The translations under genes were made by a program, and so were the position numbers. A stretch of 5,352 nt of DNA from a virus (lineage: Duplodnaviria > Heunggongvirae > Uroviricota > Caudoviricetes), in the IMG/VR virus record IMGVR_UViG_3300013942_000028, positions 1 through 5,352 of that record; one strand, 5' to 3'. The notes below the pieces were generated by a model, which was not told the DNA's origin, made no database searches, and was given only the letters and a program-made list of their open reading frames with translations. Within the stretch, counting starts at the first letter, position 1. Every line of letters begins with the position of its first letter. Below are positions 1 to 5,352 of this stretch, one piece after another.

Positions 1-1
1 A

Positions 2-103
2 ACTGTTTCATTAGCCGAATGGAAAAAATACCGGGTGCTGCTGATGCGAGTTGATACAGCAGACCCGGACTGGCCTACTCCTCCGGCGACTCAGGCCAGT
101 TGA
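2..103 (+). CDS. Tail fiber assembly protein, C-terminal fragment (5' end lies left of the window); presumed active-orientation partner of the convergent tfa at 75..506
   Basis: Frame 2 is open from the window edge to TGA at 101..103 and reads [33 protein letters not shown]. This matches the lambda Tfa-family C-terminus as I recall it ([15 protein letters not shown]...APDIEWP). Not in the ORF track because no start codon falls inside the window. Confidence 0.6.
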
Positions 104-506
104 TATCTGGTGCGCTGGATATGTCCACAGATTCCAGCGCATCGAGATAATCCAGCCACTCGTTATACTGGGCCTTCTCGTCGTCTGTAAGTCGCCCCAG
201 CGCAGCTTTACCCGGCCACTGCTTGCTGTTTATATACTCATTAGCCTGATCGATACGATACTGTTTTTCAGCTTCAGCTGCTGCGATTTCCTCCTCATGG
301 CTTAAAGGTGGAATGTCTACCCATGCCGGCATTCCATCCTCAGTAGCTCCACGAGTTTTACCCTCTGGTGGCATCCCCGAATATTCAGTGAATGTCTCAT
401 CTGAGACGGCTATGAGATCGTCAGGCCAGTTTCTACTCGCTTCATAAACATCTCTGAGCTCATCAGGGTAGAAAGCGTTATTTAATGCTGAATAAAAATA
501 AGCCAT
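75..506 (-). CDS. tfa: Tail fiber assembly protein (Tfa/gpG/U-like chaperone), alternative copy inside the invertible segment
   Basis: 143-aa ORF ending ...[33 protein letters not shown], the Tfa-family C-terminal motif (W..Y/L....VD.S.APDI.WP). It starts 3 nt downstream of the stop of the tail-fiber cassette on the same strand (translational coupling) and converges on, and overlaps by 29 bp, the other tfa 3' end. Confidence 0.8.
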
Positions 507-509
507 TTA

Positions 510-917
510 TTAATACCCCACAGCAAAATAGTTAAACCCGCCAGCGCCGATGGATGATTCAGCGTTGGTTCCTGTCTGATAAGCGCGTAGCTGGAAATTA
601 GTTCTCGTAAAATCCTGGGCGGTTAACGCAAAACCTTGACCTGTACCCCCAACACTCTGGTCTGTTGCAACAACACATAGCGCCCTGGTTGGAAACGCAA
701 TCGGGAATGATACTGTTTCTGGGGATGTTTTCGTTTTGGCTATTGCCCATTGAAGAATTAACCCGCCTGGCAGGTATTGATACCCCGAATCGGCTCGCTG
801 ATTACCAAATGAAGACATGTCCGGAATCTGTCCGGAACCAGTGCCAACATTTTTTTTTGCCGCATCTCCTAAACCAACGTTTAAGAAAATGCAGAGGTAA
901 CAGCTAACTGGCATCAT
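510..917 (-). CDS. Tail fiber protein C-terminal variable (receptor-binding) cassette, currently in the silent orientation. The ATG at 917 is probably not a real start; the cassette is expected to be expressed only after inversion fuses it to a constant N-terminal tail-fiber segment outside the window
   Basis: Translation contains the side-tail-fiber C-terminal signature ...YLPGGLILQWAIAKT...VSFPIAFPTRALCVVATD..., resembling the Mu S/S', P1 and e14/rac Stf variable domains. The hix-like crossover site lies inside codons ~10-18. An in-frame stop sits just upstream (927..929) and no RBS is evident. Confidence 0.7.
   Translation of the reverse strand: MMPVSCYLCIFLNVGLGDAAKKNVGTGSGQIPDMSSFGNQRADSGYQYLPGGLILQWAIAKTKTSPETVSFPIAFPTRALCVVATDQSVGGTGQGFALTAQDFTRTNFQLRAYQTGTNAESSIGAGGFNYFAVGY
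864..889. other. 26-bp invertase crossover site (hix/gix/cix/pix-like), right-hand copy
   Basis: ATCTCCTAAACC-AA-CGTTTAAGAAAA: two imperfect 12-bp inverted half-sites around a central AA. By my recollection of hixL (TTCTTGAAAACCAAGGTTTTTGATAA) 19 of 26 positions match, including the AAACC-AA-(G/C)GTTT core. Confidence 0.6.
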
Positions 918-944
918 CTCCGGTTTTTATTCAGGGGGATGATC

Positions 945-1520
945 ATGCTTATTGGCTATGTACGCGTGTCAACAAATGACCAGAACACCGATTTGCAACG
1001 TAATGCACTGAACTGCGCGGGATGTGAGCGGATTTTTGAGGACAAAATCAGTGGCACTAAGTCCGACAGACCGGGGCTGAAAAAACTACTCAGGACACTA
1101 TCGGCAGGTGACACGCTGGTTGTCTGGAAGCTGGACAGGTTGGGACGCAGTATGCGGCATCTTGTTACGCTGATAGAAGAGTTGCGCCAGCGTGGCGTGA
1201 ATTTCCGAAGCCTGACTGACAGTATTGATACCAGTACCCCAATGGGCCGTTTCTTTTTTCATGTCATGGGTGCCCCGGCTGAAATGGAACGCGAACTGAT
1301 AGTTGAACGTACCAGGGCGGGGATTGCTGCAGCTCGCGACAAAGGCAGAGTAGGTGGACGCCGTCCTAAGTTGACCACCGAACAGTGGGCACAGATTGGA
1401 CGTTTACTAGAGGCCGGAGAATCAAGACAGCGTATTGCACTGATTTTTGATGTGGGCATTTCTACCATTTATAGAAAATTTCCGGCAAATAAGAGCAGTG
1501 AATCCCCTGAATCAGCATAA
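945..1520 (+). CDS. Site-specific serine DNA invertase (Hin/Gin/Pin/Cin family resolvase-invertase)
   Basis: N-terminus MLIGYVRVSTNDQNTDLQRNA with the catalytic Ser in VRVSTNDQ, the GDTLVVWKLDRLGRS and MGRFFFHVMGA...AEMERELIVERT blocks, and a C-terminal HTH (GESRQRIALIFDVGISTIYRKF). Near-identical in motif order to Gin/Pin/Hin as I recall them. GGGGG at 934..938 is a Shine-Dalgarno 6 nt before the ATG at 945. The track's ATG at 939 is in frame and adds two residues; 945 gives the canonical MLIGYV start. Confidence 0.93.
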   Translation: MLIGYVRVSTNDQNTDLQRNALNCAGCERIFEDKISGTKSDRPGLKKLLRTLSAGDTLVVWKLDRLGRSMRHLVTLIEELRQRGVNFRSLTDSIDTSTPMGRFFFHVMGAPAEMERELIVERTRAGIAAARDKGRVGGRRPKLTTEQWAQIGRLLEAGESRQRIALIFDVGISTIYRKFPANKSSESPESA

Positions 1521-3404: not shown

Positions 3405-3707
3405 ATGAGCGATAAACAGACTGAAAAGACCATTCAACTGGATACCCCCATCATGCGCGGTAAAACAGAAATTACCGAAATTGTGTTGCGTAAACCGCAG
3501 TCTGGTGCGCTGCGCGGCACACGCCTGCAGGCCATTATGGATATGGATGTGAACGCGATGATGACCGTGATCCCCCGCATCTCCAGTCCGGCAGTGACTG
3601 CACAGGAAATCGCAGAGATGGACCCGGCAGATCTCACAGCCATGTCGGTTGAGGTTGTCACTTTTTTGTTGAAGAAGTCGGTGCTTGCCGGTTTACCGAC
3701 AGCCTGA
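3405..3707 (+). CDS. E: Tail assembly chaperone (P2 gpE homologue; lambda gpG analogue)
   Basis: 100-aa ORF between the tube and tape measure genes, the conserved position of E. It contains an in-frame slippery heptamer near its 3' end. Confidence 0.85.
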   Translation: MSDKQTEKTIQLDTPIMRGKTEITEIVLRKPQSGALRGTRLQAIMDMDVNAMMTVIPRISSPAVTAQEIAEMDPADLTAMSVEVVTFLLKKSVLAGLPTA

Positions 3708-3841
3708 CGGTTGACGATCTGGTGGCAGATATCGCCACCATTTTTCACTGGCCGCCATCCGTTACTGACGTTATGCCGCTGACCGAAGTGCTGGAATGGC
3801 GGTATAAAGCGATTCAGAGAAGCGGGGCCAACGATGAGTGA
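3405..3841 (+). CDS. Tail assembly chaperone frameshift product E+E' (frame 0 through 3668, then -1 frame to the TGA at 3839..3841), about 145 aa
   Basis: T TTT TTG at 3662..3668 is in the correct zero-frame register (act-ttt-ttg). The -1 frame from 3668 stays open for 57 codons (VEEVGACRFTDSLTVDDLVADIATIFHWPPSVTDVMPLTEVLEWRYKAIQRSGAND) and terminates 8 nt into the tape measure gene, as described for P2 E/E' and lambda G/GT. Confidence 0.7.
3662..3668 (+). other. Programmed -1 ribosomal frameshift slippery heptanucleotide (X XXY YYZ = T TTT TTG)
   Basis: Seen directly in the sequence, in the required register relative to the E reading frame. Confidence 0.7.
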
Positions 3842-5352
3842 TAACAACCTGCGCCTGCAGGTCATTCTTAATGCGGTTGACAAACTCACCCGCCCATTCC
3901 GTACTGCACAGGCCAGTTCGAAAGAGCTGGCTGGTGCAATCAGAAACTCCCGTGACGCATTAAAGCAACTCAATCAGGCGGGTAACAGCCTGGAAAAATT
4001 TCGCAAGCTGCAGGCCGATAACAAGAAGTTAGGCGACAGGCTGAACTATGCCAGACAGAAGGCTAATTTGCTTAGCTCTGAGCTGGAGGCGATGGAACAA
4101 CCATCACAACGGCACCTTGTGGCTTTAGGTCGGCAAACGCTGGCAGTCCAACGCCTGGAAGAACAACAAAAATATTTGCAGAAGCAAACGGCGCTTGTGC
4201 GTGCAGAACTGTACCGGGCGGGAATTTCTGCGAAAGATGATGCGGGAGCAACTGCCCGTTTAGCCCGTGAAACATCACGTTATAACCAGGAATTGTCGAA
4301 ACAGGAGGCGCGGCTGAAGCGACTGGGTGAAGCTCAGCGCAGGATGAATGCGGCGCGTGCCAGTTATGCCCGTTCGCTGGAGGTGCGCGATCGTATTGCA
4401 GGAGCCGGAGCCACTACCACGGCTGCAGGGCTGGCAATGGGGACGCCAGTGATGGCGGCAGTAAAAAGCTATACCAGCATGGAAGATGCCATGAAAGGTG
4501 TGGCAAAGCAGGTCAATGGTCTGCGTGACGATAATGGAAACCGTACTGCACGTTTTTATGAAATGCAGGATGCCATCAAGGCTGCCAGCGAACAGTTGCC
4601 GATGGAAAACGGTGCGGTGGACTTCGCTGCACTGGTTGAAGGTGGTGCGCGCATGAACGTCGCAAACCCTGACGACAGCTGGGAAGACCAGAAACGTGAC
4701 CTGCTGGCCTTCGCCAGTACGGCAGCAAAGGCGGCAACAGCCTTTGAGCTGCCAGCGGATGAACTGTCAGAAAGTCTGGGGAAAATCGCCCAGCTCTACA
4801 AAATACCTACCCGCAATATTGAACAGCTCGGCGATGCGCTGAACTATCTGGATGATAACGCCATGTCGAAAGGGGCGGACATCATTGATGTCATGCAACG
4901 TCTGGGCGGTGTGGCTGACCGTCTGGATTATCGTAAAGCGGCGGCACTGGGTTCCACCTTTCTGACACTGGGCGCTGCGCCGGAGGTTGCAGCCAGTGCA
5001 GCAAACGCGATGGTGCGTGAATTGTCCATTGCCACCATGCAAAGCAAGAGTTTCTTTGAAGGGATGAATCTGCTGAAACTCAATCCTGAAGTGATTGAAA
5101 AGCAGATGACGAAGGATGCGATGGGAACTATCCAGCGTGTGCTGGAGAAGGTGAACGCACTGCCGCAGGACAAGCGTCTGTCTGCCATGACCATGTTGTT
5201 TGGTAAAGAGTTTGGTGATGACGCGGCGAAACTGGCAAACAACCTTCCGGAACTGCAGCGCCAGCTAAAACTGACAGCGGGCAATGATGCGCTCGGTTCC
5301 ATGCAGAAAGAATCCGACATCAACAAAGACTCACTTTCTGCTCAGTGGTTGC
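3834..5352 (+). CDS. T: Tail tape measure protein (P2 gpT homologue), N-terminal ~506 codons; continues past the window end
   Basis: ATG at 3834 preceded by GGGG 8 nt upstream. I translated the frame by hand and it stays open to the window end with no stop. N-terminus MSDNNLRLQVILNAVDKLTRPFRTAQASSKELAG... followed by Q/L/E/R/A-rich heptad-like stretches typical of tape measure proteins. Position immediately after E/E' is conserved. Confidence 0.9.
   Translation, partial: MSDNNLRLQVILNAVDKLTRPFRTAQASSKELAGAIRNSRDALKQLNQAGNSLEKFRKLQADNKKLGDRLNYARQKANLLSSELEAMEQPSQRHLVALGRQTLAVQRLEEQQKYLQKQTALVRAELYRAGISAKDDAGATARLARETSRYNQELSKQEARLKRLGEAQRRMNAARASYARSLEVRDRIAGAGATTTAAGLAMGTPVMAAVKSYTSMEDAMKGVAKQVNGLRDDNGNRTARFYEMQDAIKAASEQLPMENGAVDFAALVEGGARMNVANPDDSWEDQKRDLLAFASTAAKAATAFELPADELSESLGKIAQLYKIPTRNIEQLGDALNYLDDNAMSKGADIIDVMQRLGGVADRLDYRKAAALGSTFLTLGAAPEVAASAANAMVRELSIATMQSKSFFEGMNLLKLNPEVIEKQMTKDAMGTIQRVLEKVNALPQDKRLSAMTMLFGKEFGDDAAKLANNLPELQRQLKLTAGNDALGSMQKESDINKDSLSAQWL

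What the first reader, a model, noticed from the sequence alone, without database searches (positions are those of the whole stretch)
864..889. hix/gix-like 26-bp crossover site embedded in the silent tail-fiber cassette
ATCTCCTAAACC-AA-CGTTTAAGAAAA has the dyad architecture of Hin-family recombination sites and matches hixL at 19 of 26 positions as I recall it. It lies in codons ~10-18 of the minus-strand cassette, which is where the crossover must fall for inversion to create in-frame fusions with a constant N-terminal fiber segment.
Basis: partly seen in the sequence, partly recalled or inferred. Interest (0 to 1): 0.55.

Follow-up and report, generated by a model that had tools for sequence, protein, structure and literature searches.

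The report
Pin-type tail-fibre inversion crossover site
The 26-bp sequence is a genuine recombination site of a well-known kind: the invertase-side end of a flip-flop DNA segment that lets a P2-like prophage swap the tip of its tail fibre, so the finding is correct but ordinary.

Summary
Confirmed. Window 864-889 (ATCTCCTAAACC-AA-CGTTTAAGAAAA) is a Din-family (Hin/Gin/Cin/Pin) invertase crossover site. It fits the family consensus at 13 of 15 specified positions, and no shuffle of the window gives such a match.

The window is an exact substring of a public P2-like prophage contig. The partner site lies there, 1547 bp to the left and outside the window, in inverted orientation inside tail-fibre gene H, with a matching core dinucleotide.

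Simulated exchange at the core converts an in-frame 465-aa H into an in-frame 471-aa H. The flipped state exists in nature with exactly the predicted recombinant junctions. Two isogenic strains, whose invertase differs from the window's by one residue, differ by an exact 1845-bp inversion between such sites.

A Gin-like serine invertase (E = 4e-92) lies 55 bp to the right of the site. Its 5' coding region aligns with the annotated P1 enhancer.

Two caveats apply. The window's invertase has Leu111Pro at a residue of the subunit-rotation interface. An A9/A8 homopolymer 5 nt inside the site shifts the silent cassette's frame in many relatives. This is a known kind of system, and interest is low.

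The parts
864..889 (.). 26-bp invertase crossover site at the invertase-proximal, pixR-like end of the invertible segment. Inner half-site 864-875, core AA 876-877, outer half-site 878-889.
   Evidence: Homology to relatives switches at this point: BLAST hits end at 880 or start at 865. The inverted HSP against L020 runs from core to core.
876..877 (.). Core dinucleotide AA (TT on the coding strand), the inferred point of staggered cleavage and exchange. It occupies positions 2-3 of a GTT (Val) codon here and of a CTT (Leu) codon in the partner site.
   Evidence: The same scan places the centres of the P1 and Mu sites on their annotated crossover points.
510..875 (-). Silent tail-fibre C-terminal cassette B (121 codons from the core, Gp53-like_C domain). 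It becomes the C-terminus of H after inversion.
   Evidence: Pfam PF21882 on the identical gene in L006. Simulated 471-aa fusion. Natural fusions in L001 and L023.
75..506 (-). Tail-fibre assembly (chaperone) gene tfaB, cognate to cassette B and silent in this orientation.
   Evidence: PF02413 Caudo_TAP; annotated as tail fiber assembly protein in relatives.
1..103 (+). 3' end of tfaA, the chaperone of the currently expressed cassette A. The window starts inside the invertible segment.
   Evidence: The L006 gene at 8728-9159 maps to window -328..103.
945..1520 (+). Serine DNA invertase of the Pin/Gin/Cin type, 191 aa, with Ser9 present. It carries Leu111Pro (codon 1275-1277, CCG).
   Evidence: E = 4e-92 to Gin structure 3uj3. 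Resolvase plus HTH_7 domains. 153/191 identical to PinE and 140/191 to Cin. Pro111 against Leu in all relatives.
963..1034 (.). Probable Fis-dependent recombinational enhancer inside the invertase 5' coding region. Fis-like G-N13-C 15-mers lie at 966-980 and 1015-1029.
   Evidence: It aligns without gaps to the enhancer annotated at nt 19-90 of P1 cin, 56/72 identical. This rests on homology only.
850..858 (-). A9 homopolymer (T9 on the + strand) in cassette B, 5 nt inside the site. Relatives carry A9 (in frame) or A8 (frameshift).

Best explanation
Window 864-889 is the invertase-proximal crossover site of a two-state, Pin-type tail-fibre inversion switch in a P2-like prophage.

Shown by computation:
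- The layout is H(constant)-siteL-[cassette A, tfaA > < tfaB, cassette B]-siteR(864-889)-invertase.
- SiteL (TTCTCGCATACC-TT-GGTTTGGGAGAG) lies 1547 bp to the left, in inverted orientation, with a complementary core.
- Exchange at the core swaps the last ~120 codons of H and the downstream chaperone gene, and both products stay in frame.
- Close relatives exist in the flipped state with exactly the predicted hybrid sites.

Inferred from established Hin/Gin enzymology:
- Invertase dimers bind each 26-bp site.
- Fis bound to the enhancer in the invertase 5' coding region assembles an invertasome on supercoiled DNA.
- Ser9 makes 2-nt staggered double-strand cuts at the AA/TT core.
- One pair of subunits rotates 180 degrees and the ends are religated.
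- The phage progeny, or a tailocin-like remnant, thereby alternate receptor specificity.
For: Site identity: 23/26 to pixR and 13/15 to the family consensus, unique in the window, with 0 of 200 shuffles matching.

Positive controls: the same scan recovers pixL/R in e14, gixL/R at the annotated Mu G-segment boundaries, and cixL/R at the annotated P1 crossover points.

Source and partner: the window is identical to L006 9057-14408. The partner is at L006 8373-8398. The only other hit in that 20.6-kb contig is a weak 3-mismatch one outside the tail genes.

Frames: 465-aa and 471-aa H proteins before and after simulated inversion. L023 encodes a natural 471-aa fusion that is 453/471 identical to the simulated one.

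Natural flips:
- L020 carries ATCTCCTAAACCAAGGTATGCGAGAA and CTCTCCCAAACCAACGTTTAAGAAAA, exactly the simulated recombinant sites. The segment L006 8385-9936 is inverted there at 99.8% identity.
- Isogenic strains SW071619 and SW071611 differ by an exact reverse-complemented 1845-bp segment between such sites. Their invertase is 190/191 identical to the window's, and their outer half-site is identical.
- L001 has window 1-880 at 99.5% identity, joined to H instead of to the invertase.

Enzyme: Gin-like serine invertase.

Enhancer: homologue of the annotated P1 element.

Precedent: inversion in P2-like E. coli prophages and in e14 has been shown experimentally (PMC4272514; PMC12529663).
Against: No read-level or experimental evidence shows that this very copy flips. 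The window's invertase has Pro at residue 111, where 10 relatives, Gin, Cin and PinE have Leu. The equivalent Hin Leu112 is part of the proposed ratchet at the subunit-rotation interface (PMC4513852), so the cis-encoded enzyme could be impaired. All three full-length contigs with the intact Pro111 protein show the same orientation as the window. The one flipped relative with Pro111 also has a 1-nt deletion in the invertase gene. The enhancer is assigned by alignment only.
Confidence: 0.93

Rival explanations
1. The site is authentic, but in this lineage the switch is frozen or depends on help. The Leu111Pro invertase would be inactive, so the site is either a relic or is used only when another Pin-type invertase in the same cell acts in trans.
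For: Pro111 sits at the position of Hin Leu112, a rotation-interface ratchet residue. All full-length contigs with the intact Pro111 enzyme share one orientation. Invertase decay recurs in relatives: deleted in L003/L016/L024 and frameshifted in L020. Trans action of Pin-type invertases is documented, since PinQ inverts the e14 P segment.
Against: L020 has the Pro111 allele and a right flank differing from the window at only 2 positions in 784 nt, yet its segment is flipped. At least one inversion therefore probably happened after Pro111 arose. No assay of the Pro111 protein exists. The exact protein persists on 19 contigs.
Confidence: 0.3
2. The sequence is conserved only because it encodes a conserved peptide (..YLGLGD/EAAK..) at the start of tail-fibre C-terminal domains. 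Rearrangements would then arise by homologous recombination between short repeats, not by site-specific recombination.
For: The inner half-site is coding in every cassette and encodes G-L-G.
Against: The outer half on the invertase side is never part of an expressed protein, yet it keeps the CGTTTANGAAAA half-site, 11/12 identical to pixR. Homology between the partner sites is about 15 bp, too short for efficient RecA exchange. In P1 and Mu the annotated crossover points fall at the centres of the sites that the same scan finds, and here the inverted block runs from core to core. A dedicated serine invertase is adjacent in P2-like, Mu-like and other backgrounds. Codon third positions of GGT and GGA in the inner half-site do not vary in any of the cassette copies listed.
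Confidence: 0.02
3. It is one site of a multi-site, Min-like or shufflon-like system with more than two alternative cassettes.
For: Three-site P2-like prophage switches are reported in EPEC (PMC4272514). Min of p15B has six sites.
Against: Only two consensus-like sites lie in or near the tail-fibre region of the 20.6-kb source contig. The third, 3-mismatch hit at 18073-18098 lies 8 kb away, beyond the ogr gene, and lacks the AAAC/GTTT symmetry. Only two cassette-plus-chaperone pairs are present.
Confidence: 0.03

Closest known systems
pixR / pixL and PinE of the e14 cryptic prophage (E. coli K-12 P segment)
   Same: 23/26 identity to pixR, including the CGTTTANGAAAA outer half and the AA core. 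Gene order is identical: stf-constant, cassette, tfa > < tfa, cassette, site, invertase. The invertase is 153/191 identical. The spacer between site and invertase is recognisably homologous.
   Different: The host element is a P2-like myovirus prophage with H, FI, FII, E and T genes, not the lambdoid remnant e14. The H-side partner (GGTATGCGAGAA outer half) differs from pixL (GGTTTTCGAGAG). The cassettes differ. The invertase carries Leu111Pro.
gix/Gin of phage Mu and cix/Cin of phage P1
   Same: Same 12-2-12 site architecture, and the crossover lies inside the tail-fibre gene at the junction of constant and variable parts. The chaperone gene is co-inverted, and the enhancer lies inside the invertase 5' coding region. 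E = 4e-92 to the Gin structure.
   Different: 17/26 (gix) and 19/26 (cix) identity. The gix core is GA rather than AA. The invertible segments are longer, about 3.1 and 4.3 kb centre to centre, against 1.55 kb here.
hixL/hixR and Hin of Salmonella flagellar phase variation
   Same: Same site architecture, AA core, enzyme family and presumably the Fis/enhancer mechanism.
   Different: Only 18/26 identity. Hin flips a promoter rather than making coding fusions. It is not phage tail-fibre related.
Invertible tail-fibre loci of P2-like prophages in E. coli E2348/69 (phase variation shown by whole-genome sequencing)
   Same: Same phage family and the same two-variant switch driven by inverted repeats and an invertase (PMC4272514).
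   Different: I did not compare those sequences directly with the window.

Membership tests
Din-family (Hin/Gin/Cin/Pin) invertase crossover site | 26 bp made of two imperfectly symmetric 12-bp half-sites around a 2-bp core, fitting TTCN4AAACN-NA-NGTTTN4GAA | tested here: met
   13/15 consensus positions, 8/12 dyad symmetry and 23/26 to pixR. It is unique in the window, and 0 of 200 shuffles match.
Din-family (Hin/Gin/Cin/Pin) invertase crossover site | A partner site in cis, in inverted orientation, with the same core dinucleotide | tested here: met
   L006 8373-8398, TTCTCGCATACC-TT-GGTTTGGGAGAG, lies 1547 bp to the left. Core is TT against AA on the same strand. It is outside the window.
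Din-family (Hin/Gin/Cin/Pin) invertase crossover site | Adjacent small serine recombinase with an N-terminal catalytic Ser and a C-terminal HTH | tested here: met
   Window 945-1520 has Ser9 in YVRVSTNDQ and carries PF00239 plus PF02796. E = 4e-92 to Gin.
Din-family (Hin/Gin/Cin/Pin) invertase crossover site | Segment found in both orientations, with junctions at the core | tested here: met
   L020 has the exact predicted hybrid sites and a core-to-core inverted HSP. The isogenic pair L004/L005 differ by an exact 1845-bp reverse complement. This evidence comes from relatives, not from reads of the window's own sample.
Din-family (Hin/Gin/Cin/Pin) invertase crossover site | Both orientations give in-frame tail-fibre fusions | tested here: met
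   465 aa and 471 aa; the core occupies codon positions 2-3 in both sites.
Din-family (Hin/Gin/Cin/Pin) invertase crossover site | Fis-dependent enhancer in cis | tested here: inconclusive
   Window 963-1034 aligns without gaps to the annotated P1 cin enhancer (56/72). Two G-N13-C 15-mers start 49 bp apart. Fis binding cannot be tested here.
Din-family (Hin/Gin/Cin/Pin) invertase crossover site | Catalytically competent cognate invertase | not testable with these tools
   Leu111Pro falls at the equivalent of Hin Leu112, a rotation-interface residue. Its effect is unknown.
Multiple-inversion systems (Min of p15B, three-site P2-like switch) | Three or more crossover sites and cassettes | tested here: not met
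   There are two sites and two cassette/chaperone pairs in the source contig.
Rci-type shufflon (tyrosine recombinase) | Tyrosine recombinase and 19-bp sfx repeats | tested here: not met
   The adjacent recombinase is of the serine (Resolvase) type. The repeats are of the Din type.

The most novel reading that the evidence does not exclude
The switch has extra, unrecognised layers. An A9/A8 homopolymer 5 nt inside the crossover site would act as a slippage-prone gate on the frame of cassette B. The naturally fixed Leu111Pro change at the rotation-interface ratchet residue would alter rather than abolish invertase behaviour, for example its gating, ligation or Fis dependence. Tail-fibre choice would then be set by inversion plus homopolymer slippage plus an atypical invertase.
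Probability: 0.12. Interest if true: 0.45.

Novelty: new member of a known kind. Interest (0 to 1): 0.15.

Why it matters
It matters little beyond annotation. The work fixes the exact boundaries and crossover point of an unannotated invertible tail-fibre segment in a P2-like E. coli prophage, and shows that the short "gp53-like" ORF next to the invertase is a silent cassette rather than a gene. This helps genome annotation, helps interpret assembly breaks and strain-to-strain "differences" at this locus, and helps predict the host range of such phages or tailocins. The Leu111Pro invertase and the A8/A9 tract are natural variants that could be used to probe subunit-rotation gating and switch decay.

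Tried and rejected
- Exact-pattern scans across the cassette B/invertase junction found nothing: a 61-mer in viral contigs, and a 38-mer in genome contigs and metagenome contigs. The source was found instead by exact look-up of the invertase protein.
- A literature search for the hixL sequence as a text string found nothing. The site table came from PMC3241671.
- The sigma-70 consensus scan of 780-1700 found no promoter between the site and the invertase, so I make no claim about how the invertase is transcribed.
- I considered reading the contig ends of L008 and L009, 250 and 35 nt left of the site, as evidence of mixed orientations. I rejected this as not diagnostic, because the break points do not coincide with the point where the two cassettes diverge.
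- I considered a multi-site system and rejected it.
- I tried to estimate A8 and A9 frequencies in complete E. coli genomes, but cassette B occurs in only 7 of them, too few to be useful.

Full report
**What is in the window.** The ORF list and the annotation of near-identical E. coli loci show the late region of a P2-like prophage.
- 1-103 (+): the 3' end of a tail-fibre assembly gene (tfaA).
- 75-506 (-): a second assembly gene (tfaB).
- 510-917 (-): a short ORF with a Gp53-like_C tail-fibre tip domain.
- 945-1520 (+): a 191-aa recombinase.
- Downstream: tail sheath, tail tube, gpE/E' and the tape-measure gene.

The finding lies between the short minus-strand ORF and the recombinase gene.

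**The observation.** ATCTCCTAAACCAACGTTTAAGAAAA is at 864-889 and is unique in the window at up to 3 mismatches; none of 200 shuffles gave a match. I took the canonical sites from Table 3 of PMC3241671 rather than from memory.
- Identity to pixR of prophage e14 is 23/26, with 11/12 in the outer half.
- The family consensus TTCN4AAACN-NA-NGTTTN4GAA is met at 13 of 15 specified positions. At up to 2 mismatches this is the only hit in the window, and no shuffle produced one.
- Dyad symmetry is 8/12, the same as pixR.

**Positive controls.** The same consensus scan was run on fetched reference loci.
- It returns pixL and pixR in e14.
- It returns gixL and gixR centred on the annotated Mu G-segment boundaries.
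- It returns cixL and cixR centred on the annotated P1 crossover points.

**The partner site.** The window itself starts inside the invertible segment, so the partner cannot be in it. An exact look-up of the invertase protein returned 19 contigs. The window is an exact substring of L006 (GCA_023044015.1) at 9057-14408.

In L006 the only other good match to the site or consensus is at 8373-8398, TTCTCGCATACC-TT-GGTTTGGGAGAG. It is in inverted orientation, 1547 bp to the left, inside tail-fibre gene H. A third hit with 3 mismatches lies 8 kb away, beyond ogr, and looks like chance. The cores are TT and AA on the same strand, so they are identical once the sites are aligned as inverted repeats.

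**Frame test.** H currently reads ...GLLAYLGLGEGAKLGAAV... and is 465 aa long. Reverse-complementing the stretch between the two cores gives ...GLLAYLGLGDAAKKNVGTGSGQ..., 471 aa long and ending at the cassette B stop. The core occupies codon positions 2-3 in both sites.

**Evidence that such exchange happens.**
- L020 (GCA_026220995.1) is a close relative: its right flank is 99.7% identical and its left flank 97.2%. The segment L006 8385-9936 is inverted there at 99.8% identity. Its two sites, ATCTCCTAAACCAAGGTATGCGAGAA and CTCTCCCAAACCAACGTTTAAGAAAA, are exactly the hybrids produced by my simulation.
- Strains SW071619 and SW071611 come from one wastewater sample and have chromosomes of 5,209,399 and 5,209,397 bp. 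In the locus compared they are identical except for a 1845-bp block that is an exact reverse complement. The block is bounded by TTCTCACATACCTTGGTTTGGGAGAA and TTCTCCCAAACCAACGTTTAAGAAAA. Their outer half-site is identical to the window's, and their invertase is 190/191 identical.
- L001 carries window 1-880 at 99.5% identity, joined to H rather than to the invertase.
- L023 encodes a natural 471-aa fusion that is 453/471 identical to the simulated one.
- In the first BLAST, hits end at 880 or start at 865. Homology therefore switches inside the site.

**The enzyme and the enhancer.** The recombinase has Ser9 in YVRVSTNDQ and carries Resolvase and HTH_7 domains. It matches the Gin crystal structures at E = 4e-92. 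It is 153/191 identical to PinE and 140/191 to Cin.

The P1 record annotates the Cin enhancer at nt 19-90 of cin. The same stretch of the window's gene, 963-1034, aligns to it without gaps at 56/72. It contains two G-N13-C 15-mers, at 966-980 and 1015-1029, at positions conserved in pinE, cin and gin. This is homology, not a test of Fis binding.

**Mechanism.**
- Shown: two inverted 26-bp sites with the same core, an adjacent Gin-like serine invertase, in-frame alternative fusions, and natural flipped variants with junctions at the core.
- Inferred from Hin/Gin biochemistry (PMC3798978, PMC4513852): invertase dimers on both sites and Fis on the enhancer form an invertasome. Ser9 makes 2-nt staggered cuts at the core. 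One dimer-half rotates 180 degrees and the ends are religated.
- Consequence: the C-terminal ~120 residues of H and the downstream chaperone gene are swapped, which in Mu, P1 and related systems changes host range.

**Caveats.**
- The window's invertase differs from that of the isogenic pair only by Leu111Pro (codon 1275-1277, CCG). Ten relatives, Gin, Cin and PinE all have Leu there.
- The equivalent Hin Leu112 is one of three residues proposed to form the ratchet of the subunit-rotation interface (PMC4513852).
- The exact Pro111 protein occurs on 19 contigs, so it is inherited and not a read error. The three full-length ones share the window's orientation.
- L020 carries Pro111 and is flipped, which argues for at least one inversion after the substitution arose. 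However, its invertase also has a 1-nt deletion at window 967.
- Pin-type invertases can act in trans (PMC12529663). The site may therefore still be used even if the cis enzyme is impaired. I put about 0.3 on "frozen or trans-dependent in this lineage".

**Comparison with what is known.** This is the classical Din-family tail-fibre switch, and e14 pix/PinE is the nearest relative in site sequence and gene order. Inversion in P2-like E. coli prophages has been demonstrated by sequencing and PCR (PMC4272514). It is not a multi-site Min-like system, because there are only two sites and two cassettes. It is not an Rci shufflon, because the recombinase is of the serine type.

**Verdict.** This is a new member of a known kind, and interest is low (0.15).

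Noticed in passing
window 850-858 (T9 on +; A9 on the coding minus strand): There is a homopolymer 5 nt inside the crossover site, in cassette B. Of the 18 sequences that carry this cassette (the window and 17 loci), 8 have A9 (in frame, 121 codons to the stop) and 10 have A8 (frameshift, stop after 38 codons). The A8 set includes L007, which is almost identical to the window's source, and L020, the flipped state. This could be a slippage-prone tract, an inherited frameshift or assembly error. Only 7 complete E. coli genomes carry the cassette.
   Followed up: partly
window 1275-1277 (invertase codon 111, CCG): Leu111Pro is the only difference from the invertase of strains that demonstrably flipped. 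The position equals Hin Leu112, a residue of the rotation-interface ratchet. The exact protein is on 19 public contigs.
   Followed up: partly
L003 5889-5900; L016 and L024; L020 5246-5250: The invertase gene decays repeatedly in relatives. It is deleted immediately after the site in Ecol_224 and related genomes, which leaves both sites but no enzyme. It is frameshifted by a 1-nt deletion (window position 967) in L020.
   Followed up: partly
L017, L019, L022 (each 3619-4835): The same tfaB protein and cassette B are attached to quite different baseplate and tail modules. L019 has Mu-like Gp45/Gp46/Gp48 genes, L017 has Phage_Wedge1 and Sheath_initiator, and L022 has another type. L019 and L022 have their own invertase, whereas L017 has a tyrosine integrase gene there and only one consensus site. 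The invertible module moves between phage families.
   Followed up: no
window 3405-3707 and about 3722-3841: The gpE ORF contains TTTTTTG near 3662-3668 and is followed by an overlapping GpE-family ORF. This is the usual P2 E/E' tail-chaperone programmed-frameshift arrangement.
   Followed up: no
L008 position 1 (window 615); L009 position 1 (window 829): Two assemblies that carry the identical invertase have contigs ending 250 and 35 nt left of the site, inside the invertible segment. This could reflect mixed orientations or repeated modules in those genomes, but it is not diagnostic.
   Followed up: partly
window 890-944: The 55-bp spacer between the site and the invertase start is recognisably homologous to the e14 pixR-pinE spacer, but it contains no sigma-70 consensus match. 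How the invertase is transcribed is not evident.
   Followed up: no
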